A stretch of 42,116 bases of DNA, taken from the sequence record MN850623.1. The stretch is one strand, 5' to 3'. The translations under genes were made by a program, and so were the position numbers. This document shows positions 2,153 to 34,203 of this stretch, in pieces. This DNA is from Escherichia phage sortsyn. The notes beneath the pieces were generated by a model that searched no databases, had not been told where the DNA came from, and worked only from the letters and a program-made list of their open reading frames with translations. Every line of letters starts with the position of its first letter. Position 1 is the first letter of the stretch.

Positions 2153-4405
2153 ATGGAGAACACAATGGCCCGCGACGTATACGCTGATATTGGTATGCCT
2201 TCGACGCCTTTCCTACGTCTGGACCGCTTCGCGGCGCTGGTCAACGGGAAGATCTATGTAGGCGTGAAAGATACCGACCCGCTGAACCCAGCGAACCAGA
2301 CCCAGGTCTTTGTCGAGGACGAGGACGGAACGCTGACGCCAATCCCGCAGCCAGTACGGACCAACGTCTCCGGCTATCCGGTCTGGAACGGTCAAGTAGT
2401 CAAACTGATCACCAAGATCGAATCATCCATGAAGGTGATGGACGCGAACGACGTCCAGCAATTCTATTTCGGGAACCTGTTCAAATATGATCCGGTCCAG
2501 ATGTGGAACCTTCTCACCTCGCCGACTGGCTGGGAGTACGTGGGGACGAATTACGGCGTTTTGAAAGAGTCGATTCAGGGCTGGATCACTCCTTTTCAGT
2601 TCGTCGGGAAAGCGCCATTCACCAGCGTGTCCGCAGCCATCCAAACCATGTTTGACACGGCTCAGGCCCAAAAGCTGGCAGTCTGGGCCATTGGCTGGGA
2701 GGGAACGCTGGACGGCAACGTGACCGCGACGGATATCCTCATCATGGGGGGAACGTGGAAAGGTACGCCGGACTTTTTCATGGACAATTCCACGCTGAAA
2801 GGCGCGACCATCAAAAACGCCCGTATTCGCGTATGGGGCGGCGACGTAAGGATCCGCGATTGCCTGTTTGACGGCAAGCCGACCACGAGCAAGGTCGCAA
2901 GCGTAATGATGCAAGCCCTACCGAAAAACGCGACTGTGGAAGTCACGGAGAGCGAGTTCCGCAATGGCCTTTACGGCATCTTGCAGCAGGGGACCGGGGA
3001 ACTCGTCACGCGTGGCCTGTATCGTAACTTGTCGTTTTACGACATGGGCGGCGACGGGATCGAGCTTAACGTGGTCCAGCGCCACTACGACGACGGATGC
3101 GTGATCGAAAATATCTACCTGGAGAACATCGACTCCACCGGACAGGCTCCGATCAACCCGTCCAACTGGGGGATCGGGATCGGCGTCGCTGGTCAATCTC
3201 CGTATGGTATCGACACGCCGGACGAGAACTTCGCGAAGAACATCACGATCCGCAACGTGACGGGCGTCGGCGTCCGCCAGCTTGTTCACTTCGAAATGGT
3301 CCGCGACTCCGTGATCGAGAACATCAACGGCGACCCGGATCAGAACGTGTCTAACGGCTCCGGCCTGACGCTGGCGACGGTCCTCTGTTATGGCTCGCGC
3401 CGCGTGTCGATCGATGGAGTTCGCGGGGAGCCGATCGTCCAGTCCGGGACCCTGGCCTCCGACGTCCGCGTGGTTATGCTGGAGTGGGGGACTAACGCCG
3501 GAGTGGGCGCTCGTGGTCCTTGCCAGGACATGACCGTGAGGAACGTCTATTCCAAGACCGGGCGCTTTTACGCTGGCGTGGGTACGGAAAAGGCCGGGGC
3601 AACCAACCGTTGCCGATTCAGTAACATCAACGTGGCTAAATTCTCCGTTTTCGGCGTGGCTACCGAACTGGATTTAAACGATATCTCCGGCGATATCTTC
3701 GACGCGATCGGGGATGATTCCAGCGGCGGGACGCCTTCGAATGGTTATATCGCTGGCGGTCGCACCGTGTTACGCATGAATAATGTGAACTTCGGCGCGT
3801 ACCCGGATCAGGGCTGGAGCCGTTGCGCATACAGCCAGATTGATTGCGTTAATTCGAACGTGTTCGCCCGTCCGTACCCTCGTTCGGGGACTAACGGCGG
3901 CGTAGGCGCTGAAATGCAGCCCTCTAACCACACTTACCTGATCCCTACTCCTGACCAGATGGACGGCGTAGGGATCTGGGATGGTAACGCGTTCCCGACC
4001 GGGCGCGAGTTCATGGAGGGCGATCTCCTGGTCCGCAACGATGGCAAGATCTTTGCCGTCGAGACGTCCGGCGCATACCTCCCGGCGGTCGCAGAATTGC
4101 AGATTAAAGCGACGGCAGCGGGCCAGACCTACCTCGCGCAAAATTACGCGATGGCTGGCAACAAGTCGGATCAGGTCTGGTTTTATAAGACCCCACTGAC
4201 GCAGGGGACCCGCATCACGATCCCCGGAGCCGGGGCTGGCGGCGCGGCGCTTAACACGGTGATCACTCGCGCACCGTACAGCACCAACCCAAGCAACCCG
4301 ACCGCAGAGATCAGGATCGACATTGCGGACGCTATCGTGACTGGAACCGTGGCGGGCGTTCAACTGGCGGCAACGAAGCCGATCTCCTTCCGAACTCCGG
4401 TATAA
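2153..4405 (+). CDS. Tailspike protein: P22-type head-binding N-terminal domain plus parallel beta-helix receptor-binding/depolymerase domain
   Basis: N-terminus (VNGKIYVGVKDTDPLNPANQTQVFVEDEDG...YPVWNGQVVKLIT) matches the P22 gp9 head-binding domain pattern as recalled; central region has beta-helix-like repeats (NITIRNVTGVGV, VIENINGDP, MTVRNVYSKTG). Confidence 0.9.
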   Translation: MENTMARDVYADIGMPSTPFLRLDRFAALVNGKIYVGVKDTDPLNPANQTQVFVEDEDGTLTPIPQPVRTNVSGYPVWNGQVVKLITKIESSMKVMDANDVQQFYFGNLFKYDPVQMWNLLTSPTGWEYVGTNYGVLKESIQGWITPFQFVGKAPFTSVSAAIQTMFDTAQAQKLAVWAIGWEGTLDGNVTATDILIMGGTWKGTPDFFMDNSTLKGATIKNARIRVWGGDVRIRDCLFDGKPTTSKVASVMMQALPKNATVEVTESEFRNGLYGILQQGTGELVTRGLYRNLSFYDMGGDGIELNVVQRHYDDGCVIENIYLENIDSTGQAPINPSNWGIGIGVAGQSPYGIDTPDENFAKNITIRNVTGVGVRQLVHFEMVRDSVIENINGDPDQNVSNGSGLTLATVLCYGSRRVSIDGVRGEPIVQSGTLASDVRVVMLEWGTNAGVGARGPCQDMTVRNVYSKTGRFYAGVGTEKAGATNRCRFSNINVAKFSVFGVATELDLNDISGDIFDAIGDDSSGGTPSNGYIAGGRTVLRMNNVNFGAYPDQGWSRCAYSQIDCVNSNVFARPYPRSGTNGGVGAEMQPSNHTYLIPTPDQMDGVGIWDGNAFPTGREFMEGDLLVRNDGKIFAVETSGAYLPAVAELQIKATAAGQTYLAQNYAMAGNKSDQVWFYKTPLTQGTRITIPGAGAGGAALNTVITRAPYSTNPSNPTAEIRIDIADAIVTGTVAGVQLAATKPISFRTPV

Positions 4406-4458: not shown

Positions 4459-4743
4459 TCAGCGTAAGATCGTCCAGTCATTGGCGAACAGGTCGCCCTG
4501 TGATGGGACCCAACCCGGTTGCATTACGCCTTGCGCATTTTTAAGATCAAGATGCGGGGCGATCGTAAATTCGCCAGTGATCCCGGCCTTTGCATAATCA
4601 CTACCCGGTCGCGGCTCGTTTACGGTATACCCGCCAGCCTTGATCACGAATTGATTAGCGCCATTCCATCCAGCGCGGGCAATTTTATAACCTTCCTTCA
4701 CTGCGATCAGAGCTTCGCTAAAGCTAAGGCCGGACTTAATCAT
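4459..4743 (-). CDS. DUF2829-like small phage protein
   Basis: 94 aa with GWNG...WVPSQGDLFANDW signature recalled for DUF2829; overlaps the upstream HTH gene by 8 nt. Confidence 0.5.
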   Translation of the reverse strand: MIKSGLSFSEALIAVKEGYKIARAGWNGANQFVIKAGGYTVNEPRPGSDYAKAGITGEFTIAPHLDLKNAQGVMQPGWVPSQGDLFANDWTILR

Positions 4744-5495: not shown

Positions 5496-6047
5496 TTAAA
5501 ACGGAATGTCATCATCGAAATCAAGCGGAGGCTCCCCGCCATTAGACGCTCCAGAAGCGCCTCCAGACGACGCAGGACCCGACCCGCTACCCTTGCCCGG
5601 ATTTTGCGAATTAGACGCGCCACGGCCCGGAGAATTGCGAGAATTGCCACCGCCGCCGGAGTGGGTAGGTCCATTCCCCCCAGACTGGCCTCCCTCTTTC
5701 TTCCCGCCGAGCATTTGCATAGTGCCGCCGACGTTCACGACGACCTCAGTCGTGTACTTCTCGACGCCCTGCTGGTCCGTCCACTTGCGCGTCCTAAGCT
5801 GGCCCTCAATGTAAACCTGTGAACCCTTGCGCAGATACTCCCCGGCGACCTCCGCCAGCTTCCCGAACAATACGACGCGATGCCATTCCGTTTGCTCTTT
5901 CATTTCGCCCGTTTGCTTATCGCGCCAGGATTCAGAGGTGGCGATCGTAATGTTCGCCACCGCTCCACCTGACGGCATGTAACGCACTTCGGGATCCTGG
6001 CCCAGATTGCCGACCAGAATCACCTTGTTAACGCCGCGTGATGCCAT
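5496..6047 (-). CDS. ssb: Single-stranded DNA-binding protein
   Basis: OB-fold N-terminus ([42 protein letters not shown]), Gly-rich linker, acidic C-terminal tail DDDIPF. Confidence 0.95.
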
Positions 6048-18218: not shown

Positions 18219-18264
18219 CGTTATCTCTCCGGTAGTGGGCGACCCATTGCCGCCCGGTGAAAGA

Positions 18265-18307
18265 ACTATAACAACATTTGATAAATCGCTTTTAGCAATT
18301 CGTGCTA
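18265..18307 (-). promoter_or_regulatory. Promoter cassette copy C (minus strand): palindrome TAGCACGAATTGCTA plus TGtTATAGT extended -10
   Basis: Palindrome 18293-18307; hexamer 18265-18270 on the minus strand. Confidence 0.5.
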
Positions 18308-22164: not shown

Positions 22165-22343
22165 TCTGGCTCGCCTTCGCTTACGAGGTCCTGGTGATCG
22201 CCTGGATCGGCATGACCAGAGGGACCGACGCTATCCTGACCAACTGGGAAAAGCTGGCGGTCCTCGCGCCGTTCCTGCTGGCGTCTGGCTGGGCCGTCGT
22301 CGATCTGGTCCGTTCCATCCGTCGAATGAGAAAGGATAAATAG
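22161..22343 (+). CDS. Small membrane protein
   Basis: 60 aa, two hydrophobic segments; stop codon TAG is the first triplet of promoter cassette copy D. Confidence 0.4.
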   Translation: MIWLAFAYEVLVIAWIGMTRGTDAILTNWEKLAVLAPFLLASGWAVVDLVRSIRRMRKDK

Positions 22344-23778: not shown

Positions 23779-23825
23779 TCTTCTCGACGGCGGGAAATGG
23801 TCCCGCCACTGACCGGGAGAACATC

Positions 23826-28743: not shown

Positions 28744-29295
28744 ATGATTATGATCGGCATTGTGGACTATGACGGCGAGATGGTGGCTTGTAAGCATTGC
28801 GGAGAAGTTAAGGCAAGGACGCCGGATAACTTCGCTACTACGTCCGGCTATAAGGGGCGTAAATATGTTATGAAGGTATGCCGCAAATGCAAGAACAGCA
28901 GACACGCAGACAGGCAGCGGAAGAAGCGCGAGGCGGAGCCGGAGGTGGATCAGGCTATGCGTGAGGCAGTGAGGCGACACCGGGCAACCGGGCGAGGCTA
29001 TGCGGTATGCAAGATCAACACGTACCGAAGCCGTGACCGAAAGAAGGGCATGGAGTGCGATCTGGATCCAGACTGGTATCTGGAGAACATCACCGCCAAG
29101 CCCTGCTACTCATGCGGAGAGACGTCCGACACTATGGGCGCGGACCGCATAGACAACGACCTGGGACACATCAAGGGCAACGTTTTACCCTGCTGTGCTG
29201 ATTGCAATAGAATAAGGGCGCACCGTTTTACGATGGAAGATATGCGCGACCTAATCGGGCCAGCTATCGCAAAAGTGAAGGCAAGGCGGCTATAA
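28744..29295 (+). CDS. HNH endonuclease (free-standing, between terL and portal)
   Basis: GADRIDNDLGHIKGNVLPCCADCNRIRA HNH core plus Cys4 zinc ligands; AGA/AGG/ATA codon usage unlike neighbours. Confidence 0.8.
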   Translation: MIMIGIVDYDGEMVACKHCGEVKARTPDNFATTSGYKGRKYVMKVCRKCKNSRHADRQRKKREAEPEVDQAMREAVRRHRATGRGYAVCKINTYRSRDRKKGMECDLDPDWYLENITAKPCYSCGETSDTMGADRIDNDLGHIKGNVLPCCADCNRIRAHRFTMEDMRDLIGPAIAKVKARRL

Positions 29296-29325: not shown

Positions 29326-31563
29326 ATGATGGCACGAGCAACGAAGAAGGCGCAGAACTGGCAGGAATGCGCACGTAATAAGTTAAGCGCCGCGATCGGG
29401 AGCGAGGAGTCCAGTCGTAAGAAGATGATCGAAACGGCCCGTTTCGTCCGCATTCCGGGCGCACAATGGGAAGGATCGACGAACTCCGGCTTTGCGATGG
29501 ATGATGAACGATTCCAGAAATACCCTCGATTCGAGCTTAACAAGGTCGGGCGCGAGGTGGATCGCATTATCACCGACTACCGCCTGAACCGCATCAATGT
29601 TACTTTCCGCCCGAAGGACACCCAGGCCTCCGAAGAACTGGCGGACAAGTTAAACGGCAAGTTCCGCGCAGACTTCCAGGAGTCGAACGGGCCGGAGTCC
29701 GTGGACAATACCTACGACGACGGCGTGACGGGCGGAATGGGCGCTTTTCGCATGGACACCGAACTGGAGGACGAGTTCGACCCGGACAACGAGGCCCGGC
29801 ATATTGTTTTCTATCCGATCTATGATCCGGCCTCGTGCCTGTTTATCGATCAGGACTCCAAAATGTACGATCGTTCGGATGCCATGTGGATGGCGGAGCT
29901 ATTCAGCATGACCCCAGACAAGTACGAGGAGAAATATCCCGACGCGCTCGCCCCGGAGGACCTGCTGGCGATGGACACCGGGAAGCAATTCGACTGGGCC
30001 ACGAAGGACGCGATCTATCTGGCGCGTTACTACGAGGTGAAGATCGAGGACACCACCGTGATCTCCTATAAGAACCCACTCACCGGGGACGTGGAGGTAT
30101 ACGACGAGGACGAGATCGAGCAGATCGAGGACGAGCTTAAGGCCGGAGGCTGGGAGCGCCAGAAGGACCGCAAGGTGAAACGCCGTAAGGTCTATTGCGG
30201 CCTAATGTCCGGCGGTGAATGGATCGAGGAGCCGAAGCTGATCCCGTTCGAATGGATCCCGATCTTCGTGTTCAACGCCCGCCGCTCGTTTATCGACAAC
30301 ATGGAGCGCGTAAGCGGTCACGCGACCCAGGCCCTCGACGCGCAACGTCTGGAAAACCTGATCGTGTCCATGATGGCGGACCAGGCCGCGCAGTCTGGCG
30401 GCGATAACATCCCGATCATGGATATCGACATGATTCCCGGCAAGCTGGCGGACGCCTGGGGGGAACGTAACACGAAGCGCCCGGCATACTTGCCCGCGAA
30501 ATCGCTCCGTAATGCCGCTGGTGAGGTCGTGCAGCAAGCCGGGCCACTGGGTTACACGCCATCGACTCCGCTCTCTCCAGCGCTGGCGGCGGTCCTCCAG
30601 TACACCGGGAGCACTATCCAGCAGATCGTCGGATCCTCCCAGGTCGAGGCCCTTCCGTCGAACCTTGCGACCGAAACCGTGGAGGCTATTTTCGCCCGCA
30701 TGGACGGCCAGGGCGCTCTCTACATGGACAACCTGGGGAAAACCCTCCGCCATTGCGGGCGTGTTTACCTCAGCGCGGCCCGCAAGGTCTACGGCTCGGA
30801 AAACTACGTCCGAATCAAGAACGAGGACGGGACCGACGATCTCGTGTTAATGACCGGGAAAGTGATCGACCGCGACACGGACGAGGCGATCGCGATTAAC
30901 GACCTCAAGCGCGGAAAATATGAGGTCGAGGCCGACGTGGGCGAGTCCAGCAGCACCAAACGGACTGCAACCGTCCGCAGCCTGACGACGCTCCTCCAGT
31001 CGATGGCACCAGGCGACCCGAACGCCGCCGTAGTCATGGGCCTGATCATCATGAACATGGACGGCGAAGGCTTGCAGGACTTCAAAGAGTACAGCCGCCG
31101 CCAGCTTCTCCTTAACGGCATTATCAAGCCGCAGACGGACGAAGAAAAAGCCCTTGTTCAACAGGCCCAGCAAGCGGCCCAGCAGCAGGAAAACCCGGAG
31201 ATGGTAGCCGCTCAGGGCGTAGCGCAGCAGGGACAGGCCGCAGTGATGGAGCAGGAGAACAAGCGCTTAGAATTGCAACTCAAGGCGCAGAGCACCGCGT
31301 CCGACGGCAATCTGAAACAGGCGCAGACGGTCAAGACGATGGCAGAGGCGGCAGCAATCCCGCAGGATCAGCTATTGAGCGCGATCGCCGTCCTCCAGAA
31401 GTACGTGAGCCAGCAGAACAGCGACGCCCACAAACAGGCGGATCTGTTCCTCAAGGCGCAGGGGCAAGGCCACAACCAGCAGGAGGATCGGAACGCTCGC
31501 GAGATGGCAGAACGCCAGGCGCAGCAGTCCGCCGATCGCCAGTTAGGACTCGCTGGCCTGTAA
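29326..31563 (+). CDS. Portal protein (P22 gp1-like)
   Basis: Colinear similarity to P22 portal as recalled (FYEV...EDT, KRRKVY, IPIFVF segments) and a Gln/Ala-rich C-terminal barrel region (LVQQAQQAAQQQENPEMVAAQGVAQQGQAAV). Confidence 0.92.
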   Translation: MMARATKKAQNWQECARNKLSAAIGSEESSRKKMIETARFVRIPGAQWEGSTNSGFAMDDERFQKYPRFELNKVGREVDRIITDYRLNRINVTFRPKDTQASEELADKLNGKFRADFQESNGPESVDNTYDDGVTGGMGAFRMDTELEDEFDPDNEARHIVFYPIYDPASCLFIDQDSKMYDRSDAMWMAELFSMTPDKYEEKYPDALAPEDLLAMDTGKQFDWATKDAIYLARYYEVKIEDTTVISYKNPLTGDVEVYDEDEIEQIEDELKAGGWERQKDRKVKRRKVYCGLMSGGEWIEEPKLIPFEWIPIFVFNARRSFIDNMERVSGHATQALDAQRLENLIVSMMADQAAQSGGDNIPIMDIDMIPGKLADAWGERNTKRPAYLPAKSLRNAAGEVVQQAGPLGYTPSTPLSPALAAVLQYTGSTIQQIVGSSQVEALPSNLATETVEAIFARMDGQGALYMDNLGKTLRHCGRVYLSAARKVYGSENYVRIKNEDGTDDLVLMTGKVIDRDTDEAIAINDLKRGKYEVEADVGESSSTKRTATVRSLTTLLQSMAPGDPNAAVVMGLIIMNMDGEGLQDFKEYSRRQLLLNGIIKPQTDEEKALVQQAQQAAQQQENPEMVAAQGVAQQGQAAVMEQENKRLELQLKAQSTASDGNLKQAQTVKTMAEAAAIPQDQLLSAIAVLQKYVSQQNSDAHKQADLFLKAQGQGHNQQEDRNAREMAERQAQQSADRQLGLAGL

Positions 31564-31594
31564 CTGGTCGGACCGCACGAAAAGCTAAAGACAA

Positions 31595-31620
31595 GCCCGG
31601 CAAGTCCGGGCTATTCTTTG
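31595..31620 (+). terminator. Terminator-like hairpin after portal
   Basis: Stem GCCCGG/CCGGGC then TATTCTTTG. Confidence 0.5.
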
Positions 31621-31658
31621 CCTCGACACATCACTAAACCATTACAAAGGAGTTTTGA

Positions 31659-31880
31659 ATGGCCCGATCACTGATAGCAGTCAAAGACGCCGCCGGGGAA
31701 AAGTATCTCCTCCCGGTCCGTAACATCGTGAGCGTGACGGAGTTCCCGGACAACGAGCGCCGCGTGGAGGTCAAAGTCCGCGAGCCGATCAACGGCCCAG
31801 ACGGGCGGATCTGTGGGTACGAGTTAAATCTGTATTACTCGCCAATGTCGATCGCACAATTCGAAGGGGCTTACGCATGA
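31659..31880 (+). CDS. Hypothetical protein
   Basis: 73-aa ORF. Confidence 0.45.
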   Translation: MARSLIAVKDAAGEKYLLPVRNIVSVTEFPDNERRVEVKVREPINGPDGRICGYELNLYYSPMSIAQFEGAYA

Positions 31881-32290
31881 ACCAGGAAAAAGTAATCCGC
31901 GCCGTTCTTCTGGCTCAGGCCGACGAGATGGGGATCCTCGACAAAGTGAAGGCGCACGAGGCCCGCCTGGCGGCTCGCTTCATCCAGCAGCCGACCGAGG
32001 AGGATCTGGCGGCGTATGGCCTGGCGCTGGCGCTGGTCGGCGCTCGCGCTTCGGAACTCATGACCAACGCGGAGCCGCAGGTGAAGGCGGGCGAGGTGGA
32101 ACCCGCTCCGATCGAGGTGGACCTGATGCCGACGGCGGAGCAGGTGGAGGCGGGCATTAAATCCCTGTGGGACGTCATACCGGGCGCGATGGATCAAGTC
32201 GTGCAGGACGACCCGGACGGCTCGGACGCGGTATTTTCTGACGCGGTGACGTTCGTCTGGCAAGGCATGATCGGCGCTCGCGCCAAATAG
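31877..32290 (+). CDS. Hypothetical protein
   Basis: 137-aa ORF; stop TAG is the first triplet of cassette copy F. Confidence 0.45.
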   Translation: MNQEKVIRAVLLAQADEMGILDKVKAHEARLAARFIQQPTEEDLAAYGLALALVGARASELMTNAEPQVKAGEVEPAPIEVDLMPTAEQVEAGIKSLWDVIPGAMDQVVQDDPDGSDAVFSDAVTFVWQGMIGARAK

Positions 32291-32330
32291 CACGAATTGC
32301 TAAAACAGCCTGATTATCAAATGTTATATT
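32288..32330 (+). promoter_or_regulatory. Promoter cassette copy F: palindrome TAGCACGAATTGCTA plus TGtTATATT extended -10
   Basis: Palindrome 32288-32302; hexamer 32325-32330. Confidence 0.55.
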
Positions 32331-32380
32331 GATTGTGTCGGCGGGGAATGGTCCCCGCCACTGACCAGAGAGACTACAAA

Positions 32381-32818
32381 ATGACTACTAAAACTTACAT
32401 CAAAAAACAATTCATTTGCCTGTGCGTCGCGGACGGTACACGCTCCAGCTTCTACAAACGCGGGGAGACTTACGTCTCCGACCACGACCTGGGCGACCTG
32501 TACAGCGTGGAGAAGCACACGAAGGACAACTCCGACCCGGCGCTGGTCCTGCTGGAGACTCGCGAGATCGAGATCGTCTACGAGGAGCCGACCGCCGAGC
32601 GCATCGCGGAACTTGCTCTCCCACTGCTGGAGAATGGCCTCCAGACCCTCCGCGCTTCGTTCTACATGGCGGAACAGAAGTTCCTCGCCGACATTGCCAG
32701 CATTCGCCAGCTTACCTACAAAGGCCCAATCGAAGGCGACTACGTGGCAGCAGCCGACAGCGCTCGCGACGTAACCCCTCGCAAGGACGACGACGTGGAG
32801 GACGCCGAGATCGTATGA
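32381..32818 (+). CDS. Hypothetical protein, first gene after promoter cassette copy F
   Basis: Start at ATG 32381 downstream of the cassette 5'UTR hairpin (ORF track 32333). Confidence 0.5.
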   Translation: MTTKTYIKKQFICLCVADGTRSSFYKRGETYVSDHDLGDLYSVEKHTKDNSDPALVLLETREIEIVYEEPTAERIAELALPLLENGLQTLRASFYMAEQKFLADIASIRQLTYKGPIEGDYVAAADSARDVTPRKDDDVEDAEIV

Positions 32819-33081
32819 AACATCACTATTTAGCCTTTCCGAGCGGGGGAGTCGCATCCCTCGCGAAGCTGGCCCAGGTGGAGACGGAACTCCACGACCT
32901 GGACGGCTTCCTGACCGGGCCAGAGGGGAACCGCTGGCGCATCGTAGCCAGTGAGAGGATCCACGGCTTCGAGAAGGACGGGGGAGACGTCGCGCCGTAC
33001 TACGTGATCCCCGCTTCGGTTCCACCGCATCACGAGGCGCTCTACCTATCCCAGCAGGTCGTAAGAGCCGCCACGAAATAA
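32815..33081 (+). CDS. Hypothetical protein
   Basis: ATGA overlap with upstream stop; 88 aa. Confidence 0.45.
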   Translation: MKHHYLAFPSGGVASLAKLAQVETELHDLDGFLTGPEGNRWRIVASERIHGFEKDGGDVAPYYVIPASVPPHHEALYLSQQVVRAATK

Positions 33082-33089
33082 CCCGCCAC

Positions 33090-33101
33090 ACTGGGGGGAT
33101 C
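33090..33101 (+). repeat. 12-mer ACTGGGGGGATC, copy 2 of 3
   Basis: Exact repeat, immediately after a stop codon. Confidence 0.5.
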
Positions 33102-33131
33102 GTTAATCGCGATCTCCCCTGTTTGCATTTT
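33093..33131 (+). terminator. Terminator-like hairpin
   Basis: Stem GGGGGGATCG/CGATCTCCCC (one G-U wobble) then U-rich tail; contains the ACTGGGGGGATC 12-mer. Confidence 0.5.
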
Positions 33132-33207
33132 CCCGCCGTCCTCGCTTAAACTTACACCCGCCACCGATGGGCGAAAACATCGCGTATGCAACAAACGAGG
33201 ATCTACA

Positions 33208-34203
33208 ATGAAATTCCGAAATATGTTTTTGAAATATTACGCAGAGCACGACGACGGATCTCAGGGAGGCGGCGACGGCGGCGCAGCGGCGTATGAGGCT
33301 CAACAAGGGCAGCAGGGCGAAAACGCCGACGACAATCCAGACACCGACCCGGACGAGAAGGATCCCGGCAACGCGGACACCGACCCGGACGAGCAGGACC
33401 TGGACGAAAACGGCGAGCCTAAGACGAAGGAAGGCGAGAACGGCGAGGACGACGATCAGGAGGAGGAGTTCCTGTTCGATGGTAAAGCCGTGACCGTTGA
33501 ACCGACCGACGAGGACGACCAGGAAGGCGACACCGAACTGGTGAAACGTCTCCGCGCTCAACTTCGCGAGCAGAAAAAACAGATTAAGGGATCCACCCAG
33601 AAGAAGGATCCGCAGGAAATCCCCGCCGATATGCCGCGTAAGCCGGAAATGGGCGACGAGGGGATCGACTGGGACCCGGAGAAGTACGCCGAAGCGCTGG
33701 ACAAGTGGACCGAGGATAAGGCAGCTTTCCAGCAGCACCAGGCGGCGCAGGAAGCGAAGCGCGAAGCGTTCGGGAAGAAATTCCAGGAAGGCCAGACGCG
33801 CTACCAGACGGAACGCGCAAAGGCGATCAAGAAGTACGCAGGATTTGAGAAGGCCGAAGCGGCGATCGCAGAACTGCCGGAGCCACTCCAGGCGGGCCTG
33901 ATGATCACCAGCCAGAACCCGACGGCGCTCGTGATGGCACTGGGACGCAATGCTGATTTGCGTAAACAGGTCGAGGACGCTTACAATAACGATCACATTG
34001 CGCTGGGCTATCTTATCCGCGATATTGAAAGCCGAGCGGGATCCGCACCGAAGGCGAAGCAGCAGCTTAACAAAACGCCGGACGTTAAGGGCCAGAATGG
34101 AGTCGCTAACGTGGGCCAACTCGAAGCCCTTCGCAAGAAGGCCGAAGAAACCGGGGATTATACGGCATACTTCGCGGCGAAAGAGAAGCGGGAAAAGAAG
34201 TAA
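33208..34203 (+). CDS. Scaffolding protein
   Basis: Acidic, helical, Lys/Glu-rich 331-aa protein between portal and coat. Confidence 0.7.
   Translation: MKFRNMFLKYYAEHDDGSQGGGDGGAAAYEAQQGQQGENADDNPDTDPDEKDPGNADTDPDEQDLDENGEPKTKEGENGEDDDQEEEFLFDGKAVTVEPTDEDDQEGDTELVKRLRAQLREQKKQIKGSTQKKDPQEIPADMPRKPEMGDEGIDWDPEKYAEALDKWTEDKAAFQQHQAAQEAKREAFGKKFQEGQTRYQTERAKAIKKYAGFEKAEAAIAELPEPLQAGLMITSQNPTALVMALGRNADLRKQVEDAYNNDHIALGYLIRDIESRAGSAPKAKQQLNKTPDVKGQNGVANVGQLEALRKKAEETGDYTAYFAAKEKREKK

What the first reader, a model, noticed from the sequence alone, without database searches (positions are those of the whole stretch)
31659..33081. Four-gene insertion with its own promoter cassette between portal and scaffold
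In P22-like modules the scaffold gene follows the portal gene directly. Here four unknown ORFs and cassette copy F lie between them, bounded by terminator-like hairpins at 31595 and 33093. This is an accessory island inside the morphogenesis operon under the phage-specific promoter.
Basis: partly seen in the sequence, partly recalled or inferred. Interest (0 to 1): 0.5.

Follow-up and report, generated by a model that had tools for sequence, protein, structure and literature searches.

The report
Variable accessory-gene slot between portal and scaffold
The four small genes between the portal and scaffold genes of this P22-like coliphage are real, but they are this phage's version of an old, swappable accessory-gene slot found in all its relatives, not a fresh insertion, and what their proteins do is unknown.

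Summary
The window is almost certainly Escherichia phage sortsyn (Murrayvirus). It has four same-strand ORFs between a P22-type portal and the scaffold gene: A 31659-31880, B 31877-32290, C 32381-32818, D 32815-33081. Promoter-cassette copy F lies between B and C, and stable hairpins sit at 31594-31612 and 33093-33119. In P22 itself, portal and scaffold are 13 nt apart.

Every relative examined, across at least four named genera plus unclassified phages and metagenomic contigs, has 2-4 small genes in this slot. The C-D pair recurs in the most distant relatives and looks ancestral; A and B are confined to narrower sub-lineages. Base composition matches the rest of the genome and dN/dS is 0.12-0.53, so this is not a recent import. 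Cassette F can drive only C-D. A-B sit behind a seventh, decayed cassette that carries the post-portal hairpin in its spacer. Each of the four genes is missing from at least one close relative, and B and C are the only divergent patches against 97.7%-identical IME_EC2. That fits accessory cargo, not core assembly genes.

No sequence family or solved fold assigns a function. One lead: most C homologues end in a copy of the SSB C-terminal tip (…D-I-P-F), and remote homologues sit in replication/recombination-gene neighbourhoods. The sortsyn copy has lost that tip.

The parts
29326..31563 (+). Portal gene (745 aa), upstream boundary of the slot
   Evidence: Pfam P22_portal E 3.5e-156 and phrog_156.
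31573..31617 (+). Diverged seventh cassette copy. The operator remnant is CCGCA-N5-AGCTA (31573-31587), the terminator-like hairpin (31594-31612) lies in the spacer, and the -10-like TATTCT is at 31612-31617.
   Evidence: It aligns in register with cassette F and with the intact post-portal cassettes of C130_2, Skarpretter and STP9. The hairpin folds at -17.5 kcal/mol, z -3.7, and is flagged as terminator-like on both strands.
31659..31880 (+). ORF A: 73 aa, 8.2 kDa, pI 5.3. It has a strong Shine-Dalgarno sequence (AAGGAG).
   Evidence: dN/dS 0.12-0.21. Homologues occur only in Murrayvirus and Kc237. No Pfam, PHROG or NCBIfam hit. It is not homologous to the 145-aa gene that occupies the same position in Sortsnevirus (hhalign probability 0.1%).
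31877..32290 (+). ORF B: 137 aa, pI 4.3. Its start overlaps the stop of A (ATGA). It has two modules: a conserved N-module and a mosaic C-module.
   Evidence: It matches phrog_35278 (unknown function) at E 1e-67. 45 cluster representatives were found, nearly all from phage-sized or shorter contigs; two are filed under Enterobacter bugandensis on a 42.7-kb contig. dN/dS 0.34-0.52. The C-module is only 67-83% identical to IME_EC2 in otherwise 99-100% identical DNA. The C-module also occurs as a stand-alone 53-aa ORF in the early region of Kagunavirus fFiEco03.
32287..32359 (+). Cassette copy F. It comprises the operator palindrome TAGCA-N5-TGCTA (32288-32302), the extended -10 TGtTATATT (32322-32330), and a 5' stem-loop (32339-32359) with an AATGG loop.
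   Evidence: 6 copies in the window against 0.04 expected. The stem-loop folds at -20 kcal/mol, z -3.0. Within Murrayvirus the cassette is present only where gene C is present (window, IME_EC2, KMB41) and absent from Lumpael and ST231.
32381..32818 (+). ORF C: 145 aa, pI 4.6. The predicted structure is a beta-hairpin domain, a 40-residue helix and a disordered acidic tail. This is the tip-less variant of a family that normally ends in …D-(I/V/F)-P-F.
32815..33081 (+). ORF D: 88 aa, pI 6.3. Its start overlaps the stop of C (ATGA). It is the minimal member of the D/X family, which always sits last before the scaffold.
33093..33119 (+). Terminator-like hairpin that closes the slot, followed by TGTTTGCATTTT
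   Evidence: -22.3 kcal/mol, z -4.0. A hairpin occupies the same position in all relatives. In C130_2 and Skarpretter it carries a clean T-run (…GGATTTTTTCG).
33120..33207 (+). Conserved leader of the scaffold gene. It contains a CTTACAC box (33151-33157) and a small hairpin, CGATG-N8-CATCG (33165-33182).
   Evidence: The sequence is conserved across genera. Kc166B has CGTTG…CAACG, a compensatory change. The hairpin alone is not thermodynamically unusual (z -0.6).
33208..34203 (+). Scaffold gene (331 aa), downstream boundary
   Evidence: phrog_648 'head scaffolding protein' E 1.5e-75.

Best explanation
The interval 31564-33207 is the sortsyn version of a hypervariable accessory-gene slot. This slot lies between the portal and scaffold genes in the whole clade of high-GC, roughly 41-kb, P22-like podophages: Murrayvirus, Sortsnevirus, Hungariovirus, Skarprettervirus, Kc166B, Kc237 and STP9.

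Layout. The slot holds two translationally coupled gene pairs. A-B follows a decayed copy of the phage's operator-plus-extended -10 promoter cassette, whose spacer contains the post-portal terminator hairpin. C-D follows the intact cassette F. A conserved terminator hairpin then closes the unit, ahead of the scaffold gene's own conserved leader.

History. C-D is the ancestral pair, and A and B were added within sub-lineages.

Products. The four proteins are small (8-16 kDa), soluble and mostly acidic. They are restricted to this clade, have no catalytic signature, and are individually dispensable.

Likely role. I infer that they are not capsid building blocks. I think they are late-expressed accessory factors acting through protein-protein contacts on DNA metabolism or host interaction. 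C is the best lead. Its family normally carries a mimic of the SSB C-terminal tip, and its remote relatives sit in replication/recombination-gene neighbourhoods beside nucleases and annealing proteins. The copy here has lost the tip and may be a weakened or re-purposed form.

Shown versus inferred. Shown: the anatomy, synteny, conservation pattern, composition, predicted folds and lack of known homologues. Inferred: promoter and terminator activity, timing, dispensability and any function.
For: Synteny:
- P22 has a 13-nt gap between portal and scaffold.
- All 12 relatives' loci and the metagenomic contigs hold 2-4 genes there.

Presence/absence:
- C is absent from Lumpael, ST231, Kc237 and Sortsne.
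- D is absent from IME279.
- B is absent from KMB41 and the C130_2-type phages.
- A is absent from Sortsnevirus.

Ancestry of C-D:
- The pair is found in C130_2, Skarpretter, Kc166B and remote contig L015.

Resident, not imported:
- GC3 of A-D is 0.72-0.81, against 0.78 for portal and terminase. The inserted HNH gene has 0.66.
- dN/dS is 0.12-0.53, against 0.13-0.18 for the portal.

Mosaic hot spot:
- Against IME_EC2, only B's C-module (67-83%) and C (81-89%) diverge in 6 kb of otherwise roughly 99-100% identity.

Transcription signals:
- In Murrayvirus the cassette occurs only where gene C occurs.

No structural-protein signal:
- No Pfam, PHROG-with-function or NCBIfam hit for any slot gene of any relative.

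Outside relatives lie in early or DNA-metabolism modules, not head modules:
- C core = phrog_2479, beside Lar/Erf/YqaJ/NinB, and in a helicase/exonuclease VIII/Sak4-like neighbourhood in phage Amjad_SA.
- B's C-module occurs in the Kagunavirus early region.

SSB-tip mimicry in C homologues:
- C130_2 ends ADFDPDIPF; the phage's own SSB ends LDFDDDIPF.
- DDDIPF is the SSB-Ct motif (PMC5872125).
Against: - No expression, proteomic or genetic data exist for any of these genes in any relative.
- The slot is never empty, and C and D/X keep their position over deep divergence. That would also fit a non-essential but useful assembly role.
- Dispensability is inferred from presence/absence among different phages, not from knock-outs. 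Non-homologous replacements could supply the same function.
- The link to DNA metabolism rests on neighbourhood of remote homologues and on a tail motif that the window's own C lacks.
Confidence: 0.6

Rival explanations
1. The small proteins are packaged internal or ejection proteins. On this view they are made late, loaded into the procapsid, and injected with the DNA to protect it or to manipulate the host at the start of infection. This would resemble the T4 internal proteins or P1 Dar proteins (named from background knowledge).
For: - The genes lie in the late head operon, next to portal and scaffold.
- The proteins are small and acidic, and gene content is hypervariable among close relatives. 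By my recollection this resembles the T4 internal-protein loci.
- The GenBank record of Kc237 labels the A and B homologues 'internal virion protein'.
- An SSB-tip-bearing protein delivered with the genome could plausibly recruit host replication-restart factors. This is inference only.
Against: - The Kc237 paper reports no proteomics and never mentions internal virion proteins, so the label has no stated experimental basis.
- The clade already has P22-type ejection-protein genes downstream of the tail genes.
- No capsid-targeting motif or protease site could be tested.
Confidence: 0.2
2. They are lineage-specific morphogenesis factors, such as chaperones for portal incorporation, scaffold partners or minor head proteins. 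On this view they belong to the core assembly programme of this clade, and apparent losses are covered by non-homologous substitutes.
For: - The slot is always occupied.
- C and D/X are fixed in position and order from Murrayvirus out to remote metagenomic relatives.
- All four genes are under purifying selection.
- They are co-oriented with, and embedded in, the morphogenesis operon.
Against: - Each family is missing from at least one close relative that keeps an almost identical portal, scaffold and coat.
- sortkaff and IME279 share about 90% identity but differ by the presence of D.
- IME_EC2 carries a 1-nt shorter A-run near the start of C.
- The slot is insulated from its neighbours by terminator-like hairpins.
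- The only outside homologues of B and C lie in early or recombination modules.
- P22, with the same portal, scaffold and coat families, needs no such genes.
Confidence: 0.15
3. This is the first reader's version: a recently acquired four-gene island (moron), inserted as one unit with its promoter into an originally contiguous portal-scaffold junction of this phage.
For: - P22 lacks the genes.
- Promoter-like and terminator-like elements flank or lie within the interval.
Against: - The slot is filled in every relative.
- Composition is native.
- The four genes have different phylogenetic distributions, and cassette F splits them 2+2.
- IME_EC2 has the same four genes in the same order at 97.7% identity.
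Confidence: 0.05

Closest known systems
Morons: extra gene(s) with their own promoter and terminator between conserved late genes of lambdoid or HK97-type phages (concept recalled from the literature, not tested here)
   Same: Extra small genes sit between two head genes that are adjacent in the reference phage P22. There is a promoter-like element in front and a hairpin terminator behind. Content varies among relatives and function is unknown.
   Different: Base composition is not deviant. The slot is ancient and always occupied. No integrase is annotated in the IME_EC2 record, so the phage is probably virulent and there would be no prophage expression. The promoter is the phage's own repeated operator cassette, which also heads other operons of this genome, not an independent constitutive promoter.
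P22 morphogenesis module (Lederbergvirus): genes 2-1-8-5-4-10-26
   Same: The portal is P22_portal. The scaffold matches phrog_648. P22-type coat, Tail-4 adaptor and gp10-type head-closure genes appear in the same order in the relatives.
   Different: P22 has 13 nt between portal and scaffold. This clade has 1.1-1.9 kb with 2-4 genes there.
Bacterial and phage SSB C-terminal tail (SSB-Ct, DDDIPF)
   Same: Most members of the C family end in an acidic linker plus …D-(I/V/F)-P-F at the very C-terminus. C130_2 ends ADFDPDIPF, and the phage's own SSB ends LDFDDDIPF.
   Different: There is no SSB/OB-fold Pfam match and the predicted fold is different. The window's own C stops at …DAEIV and lacks the tip.
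T4 internal-protein genes and other hyperplastic head-region loci (recalled from background knowledge)
   Same: These are small, variable proteins encoded among head genes, and their content differs between close relatives.
   Different: No evidence of packaging, no prohead protease in P22-type assembly, and no sequence or fold similarity was tested or found.

Membership tests
Moron (own promoter + gene + terminator between conserved late genes) | Extra genes lie between neighbours that are adjacent in related phages | tested here: inconclusive
   Met against P22 (13-nt gap). Not met against any relative within the clade, all of which have the slot filled.
Moron (own promoter + gene + terminator between conserved late genes) | Own promoter upstream and own terminator downstream | tested here: inconclusive
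   At the sequence level, cassette F with an extended -10 and the hairpin at 33093-33119 are present. Activity cannot be tested with these tools.
Moron (own promoter + gene + terminator between conserved late genes) | Base composition differs from the surrounding genome | tested here: not met
   GC of A-D is 0.58-0.65 and GC3 is 0.72-0.81, against genome GC 0.59 and portal GC3 0.78. The neighbouring HNH gene does deviate (GC3 0.66).
P22-like head module | P22-type portal, scaffold, coat, gp4 and gp10 in that order | tested here: met
   P22_portal E 3.5e-156 and phrog_648 scaffold. Orthologous loci in relatives carry P22_CoatProtein, P22_Tail-4 and Phage_stabilise.
SSB family / SSB-Ct-bearing proteins | OB-fold ssDNA-binding domain (Pfam SSB) | tested here: not met
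   No Pfam or NCBIfam hit for C or its full-length homologue P0001. The AF2 fold is a beta-hairpin domain plus a long helix.
SSB family / SSB-Ct-bearing proteins | C-terminal acidic tip ending in I-P-F | tested here: not met
   The window's C ends …VEDAEIV. 21 of 25 aligned homologues carry the tip, as do three of the five further homologues from the exhaustive search: P0099, P0101 and P0102. The feature therefore holds for the family but not for this gene.
phrog_2479 (unknown function; small proteins found in replication/recombination-gene neighbourhoods) | Profile match to the beta-domain plus helix core | tested here: inconclusive
   The window's C has no PHROG hit at E<=0.01. The C-family profile matches the phrog_2479 member P0103 at hhalign probability 97.5%, E 6.9e-12.
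Gam-type host-nuclease inhibitors | Structural similarity to a solved Gam protein | tested here: not met
Packaged internal / ejection proteins | Presence in purified virions | not testable with these tools
   The only hint is the unreferenced product name in the Kc237 record. The paper reports no proteomics.

The most novel reading that the evidence does not exclude
The C family would be a previously undescribed class of small phage proteins: a beta-hairpin domain, a long helix (a coiled-coil dimer is my guess), an acidic linker and an SSB C-terminal-tip mimic. On this reading it derives from a gene that elsewhere sits in replication/recombination modules beside Erf/YqaJ or exonuclease VIII genes. 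In this clade it moved, with its partner D and its own operator-controlled promoter, into the head operon. There it would act late, or be packaged, and use the fake SSB tail to capture or block host SSB-partner enzymes such as ExoI, RecQ, RecJ, PriA or the chi subunit. This could occur during concatemer processing and packaging, or on the incoming genome. The sortsyn/IME_EC2 lineage would be a natural tip-deletion variant.
Probability: 0.3. Interest if true: 0.6.

Novelty: new member of a known kind. Interest (0 to 1): 0.35.

Why it matters
For genome annotation, it shows that the portal-scaffold junction of this podophage clade is a defined, insulated cargo slot. The four 'hypothetical proteins' should not be labelled as structural or 'internal virion' proteins without data. 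Such slots are convenient places to look for host-interaction or counter-defence genes, and to insert payloads when engineering phages.

The more interesting by-product is the C family. Non-SSB proteins carrying an SSB-tail copy would be a compact natural tool for hijacking the host SSB interaction network. The clade offers matched natural variants with and without the tip. As it stands, none of this is demonstrated, and the locus itself is an ordinary kind of phage genome plasticity.

Tried and rejected
1. Family searches. Pfam, PHROGs and NCBIfam were run on A-D and on the non-homologous slot genes of relatives. The only hit was B = phrog_35278, of unknown function. PADLOC was not run.

2. 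PDB sequence-profile searches for C and D found nothing below E 0.1.

4. The exhaustive profile search for C found only 6 representatives, so there is no large hidden family.

5. A possible homology between A and the 145-aa gene that replaces it in Sortsnevirus was rejected (hhalign probability 0.1%).

6. Antisense ORFs (31871-32293, 32324-33091 on the minus strand) were rejected as high-GC artefacts. The plus-strand frames are the ones conserved with dN/dS<1, and the antisense frames span indels among relatives.

7. The 156-aa start of C at 32348 was rejected in favour of 32381.

8. Rfam found no known RNA family anywhere in the window.

9. A plain sigma-70 reading with TTGCTA as the -35 was rejected. 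The spacing to the best -10 is 22-23 nt in five of six copies, and 20 nt in the copy at 22341.

10. Literature searches found no functional data on these genes or on SSB-tail mimics in non-SSB phage proteins in the held library. The IME_EC2 paper is not held.
Full report
**Identity of the window.** The window is 42,116 bp. A homologue search returned 'hypothetical protein sortsyn_51 [Escherichia phage sortsyn]' and 'sortsyn_50' on a 42,116-bp contig. The Danish wastewater coliphage paper lists sortsyn (MN850623) as a 42,116-bp Murrayvirus with 59% GC (PMC7552041). The closest record in the phage collection is Enterobacteria phage IME_EC2, 97.7% identical over the portal-to-capsid region.

**Checking the observation.**
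- On the + strand, a 745-aa portal (29326-31563; Pfam P22_portal, E 3.5e-156) and a 331-aa scaffold (33208-34203; phrog_648, E 1.5e-75) are separated by 1,644 bp.
- That interval holds four ORFs: A 31659-31880 (73 aa), B 31877-32290 (137 aa), C 32381-32818 (145 aa) and D 32815-33081 (88 aa).
- A/B and C/D each overlap by ATGA, which suggests translational coupling.
- In P22 the portal gene ends at 3879 and the scaffold gene starts at 3893, so the contrast with P22 is correct.
- The repeated motif ATAGCACnnnTTGCTAAAAC occurs six times in the window against 0.04 expected. One copy lies at 32287-32306, in the 90-nt gap between B and C.
- The hairpins at 31594-31612 and 33093-33119 were picked up by the terminator scan. 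They fold at -17.5 and -22.3 kcal/mol, with z -3.7 and -4.0.
- All four ORFs are under purifying selection against relatives (dN/dS: A 0.12-0.21, B 0.34-0.52, C 0.16-0.53, D 0.25-0.53; portal 0.13-0.18).
Homologues of C all begin at the position of ATG 32381. The longer annotated start at 32348 lies in the loop of a conserved 5' stem-loop.

**Synteny.** I fetched the portal-scaffold region from these sources:
- Murrayvirus: IME_EC2, ST231, KMB41 and Lumpael.
- Sortsnevirus: Sortsne, IME279 and sortkaff.
- Other isolates: Kc237, Kc166B, C130_2 (Hungariovirus), Skarpretter and STP9.
- Two metagenomic contigs carrying a remote C homologue.

Every one has 2-4 small genes between a P22-type portal and the scaffold. 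Clustering the products gives the following arrangements, where [cas] marks the promoter cassette:

| Phage(s) | Slot content |
|---|---|
| sortsyn, IME_EC2 | A-B-[cas]-C-D |
| KMB41 | A-x-[cas]-C-D |
| Lumpael | A-x-B'-D |
| ST231, Kc237 | A-B-D |
| Sortsne | E-B-D |
| sortkaff | E-B-C-D |
| IME279 | E-x-B-C |
| C130_2, STP9, Skarpretter | [cas]-C-X |
| Kc166B, contigs L015/L016 | y-C-X |

- X is a longer, distant member of the D family. The families share the RY..GG and YY.IPA..PP motifs, and the X-type gene in L015 scores hhalign 83%, E 8.6e-6.
- C-D/X is therefore the deepest-conserved pair, and A and B have narrower distributions.
- Each of the four genes is missing from at least one close relative.
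- Composition argues against recent import. GC3 of A-D is 0.72-0.81, like portal and terminase at 0.78. The HNH gene at 28744-29295 is absent from IME_EC2 and the others, and it has GC3 0.66.
- Against IME_EC2, the whole 6-kb region is about 96-100% identical per 100 bp, with two exceptions. The C-terminal module of B is 67-83% identical and the body of C is 81-89%. The slot is thus a local mosaic hot spot.

**Regulatory anatomy.**
- The cassette is an inverted repeat, TAGCA-N5-TGCTA. In five of six copies a -10-like hexamer follows 22-23 nt later, and in four of those five it has an upstream TG, i.e. an extended -10. The copy at 22341 has 20-nt spacing.
- With the hexamer at -12 to -7, the palindrome centre falls near -42. 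The hexamer at the -35 position is poor (AAAACA).
- I read this as a host-RNA-polymerase promoter that depends on, or is controlled by, a dimeric phage regulator. This is an inference from geometry. No RNA polymerase is annotated in the IME_EC2 record.
- By position against the IME_EC2 annotation, copies of the cassette also precede the methylase/RusA genes, the lysis genes and the packaging genes.
- The cassette is conserved in C130_2, Skarpretter and STP9. There, a perfect copy sits directly after the portal stop and in front of the C homologue, with a GC hairpin inside its spacer.
- The sortsyn post-portal region aligns in register with those copies and with cassette F. Its half-sites have decayed to CCGCA…AGCTA. 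The 'terminator' hairpin at 31594-31612 occupies the spacer, and TATTCT is the -10.
- The slot therefore has two cassette-type elements, a decayed one before A-B and an intact one before C-D. Cassette F cannot serve A-B.
- Within Murrayvirus, cassette F is present exactly where gene C is present, so cassette and C behave as a unit.
- Downstream of D, the hairpin is conserved in position in all relatives. In C130_2 and Skarpretter it has a clean T-run.
- The 90 nt that follow form the scaffold leader and are among the most conserved non-coding sequences in the region.

**What the proteins are.**
- None of A-D, and none of the non-homologous slot genes of relatives, matches Pfam or NCBIfam. The only PHROG hit is B to phrog_35278, of unknown function.
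- All four are soluble, have no hydrophobic segment, and have pI 4.3-6.3.
- The families are small and essentially clade-restricted. C has 23 clusters, and 6 representatives among 1.84 billion proteins. D/X has 30 proteins and B has 45.

**Leads on function.**
- Twenty-one of 25 aligned C homologues end in an acidic stretch followed by …D-(I/V/F)-P-F, and so do three of the five further homologues from the exhaustive search (P0099, P0101, P0102). Examples are KPLDIPF in KMB41 and ADFDPDIPF in C130_2.
- The phage's own SSB (5496-6047, minus strand) ends [11 protein letters not shown]. DDDIPF is the SSB-Ct motif through which SSB binds its partner enzymes (PMC5872125).
- The sortsyn, IME_EC2 and a few metagenomic copies stop at …DAEIV and have lost the tip. 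In them the D start is fused onto the truncated end.
- The most remote homologue, P0103, scores hhalign 97.5%, E 6.9e-12, and belongs to phrog_2479. It lies immediately upstream of Lar, Erf, a YqaJ exonuclease and NinB/Orf genes.
- A further phrog_2479 member, in Pseudomonas phage Amjad_SA, lies in a replication/recombination neighbourhood. A helicase gene lies two genes upstream, an exonuclease VIII gene two genes downstream, and a weakly Sak4-like gene further on.
- B's variable C-terminal module occurs as a stand-alone 53-aa ORF in the early region of Kagunavirus fFiEco03. Its neighbours there are a DicA-like repressor gene and a helicase-primase gene.
- So the only relatives of slot genes outside the clade lie in early or DNA-metabolism modules, never in head modules.

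**Conclusion and rivals.**
- The best-supported reading is an ancient, insulated and hypervariable accessory-gene slot, moron-like in layout but native in composition. Its cargo is individually dispensable and more likely concerns DNA metabolism or host interaction than capsid construction (confidence about 0.6).
- The main rival is that these are packaged internal proteins (0.2). The Kc237 record calls the A and B homologues 'internal virion protein', but the paper contains no proteomics and no such statement.
- A role as clade-specific assembly factors (0.15) is not excluded, because the slot is never empty and C-D/X are fixed in position.
- No expression, proteomic or genetic data exist for any of these genes. 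All statements about function are inference.

**Novelty and score.** Variable accessory genes with their own signals inside late operons are a known kind of phage genome plasticity, and this is a new, well-delimited example. The potentially new element is the C family as a non-SSB carrier of an SSB-tail mimic. That applies to relatives and not to the gene in this window, and it is untested. Interest is 0.35.

Noticed in passing
window 28744-29295 (+): An HNH / endonuclease VII-like gene (183 aa; phrog_1035, E 1.6e-19) sits between the large terminase and the portal. It is absent from IME_EC2, Lumpael, KMB41, ST231 and Sortsne, where terminase and portal are 15-20 nt apart. Its GC3 is lower (0.66 against 0.78). 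This, not the four-gene slot, is the real recent insertion in the region. In C130_2 and Skarpretter the same junction holds 2-3 small minus-strand genes and a cassette copy.
   Followed up: partly
window 33120-33207 (+): The scaffold-gene leader is strongly conserved across genera. It has a CTTACAC box (33151-33157) lying 17 nt after a TTGC-type hexamer in several relatives, and a small hairpin CGATG-N8-CATCG (33165-33182). Kc166B has CGTTG…CAACG at the hairpin, a compensatory change. It could be the scaffold gene's own promoter and a site for translational autoregulation, which I recall has been described for the P22 scaffold. The hairpin alone is not thermodynamically unusual (z -0.6).
   Followed up: partly
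window 11324, 13634, 18293-18307(-), 22341, 23736, 32288; decayed copy 31573: The operator palindrome TAGCA-N5-TGCTA is followed 22-23 nt later (20 nt in the copy at 22341) by a -10-like hexamer, which has an upstream TG (TGnTAxxxT) in four of the six copies. The palindrome centre lies near -42, which resembles class II activator geometry. The same palindrome is conserved in C130_2, Skarpretter and STP9. The regulator that binds it was not identified.
   Followed up: partly
window 32339-32359, 23786-23805, and ~18245-18263 (-): Transcripts from three cassettes would begin with a GC stem-loop whose stems differ (GGCGGGG/CCCCGCC, GGCGGG/CCCGCC, GGGCGGC/GTCGCCC) but whose loop keeps AATGG, followed by ACTGACC or ACTACC and a GAGAG-type ribosome-binding site. 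This may be an RNA-stability, processing or antitermination signal. The ATG in the loop was taken as the start of sortsyn_51 in GenBank.
   Followed up: no
L001 (IME_EC2) 4570-4700, equivalent to window 32381-32510: IME_EC2 has AAAAA where sortsyn has AAAAAA near codon 8 of gene C. That shifts the frame, so GenBank annotates only a 103-aa GTG-started remnant (gp38). It is either a homopolymer sequencing error or a real inactivation of C in that phage.
   Followed up: partly
window 5496-6047 (-): The phage's own SSB ends …[14 protein letters not shown], which carries the DDDIPF SSB-Ct motif. No DNA polymerase is annotated in the IME_EC2 record, so the phage probably relies on the host replisome and on SSB-partner proteins.
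   Followed up: partly
L018 1403-1726; L019 (Pseudomonas phage Amjad_SA) 3992-4282: Short, tail-less remote homologues of C (phrog_2479) lie in replication/recombination modules. In L018 the gene is followed directly by Lar, Erf, YqaJ and NinB/Orf genes. In Amjad_SA a helicase gene lies two genes upstream, and exonuclease VIII and a weakly Sak4-like gene lie downstream. This suggests phrog_2479 is a recombination-associated family worth characterising.
   Followed up: partly
L013 (Kagunavirus fFiEco03) 4489-4650: A 53-aa ORF next to a DicA-like repressor gene is homologous to the C-terminal module of B. The shared motifs are PT.E…AG and F.WQAMI, with 48% identity over 52 aa. The module is therefore mobile between unrelated phages.
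   Followed up: no
L002 (Kosakonia phage Kc237) 3825-4510: The GenBank products 'internal virion protein' for the A and B homologues have no support in the paper describing the phage. It reports no proteomics and never uses the term. These names risk being propagated by annotation transfer.
   Followed up: yes
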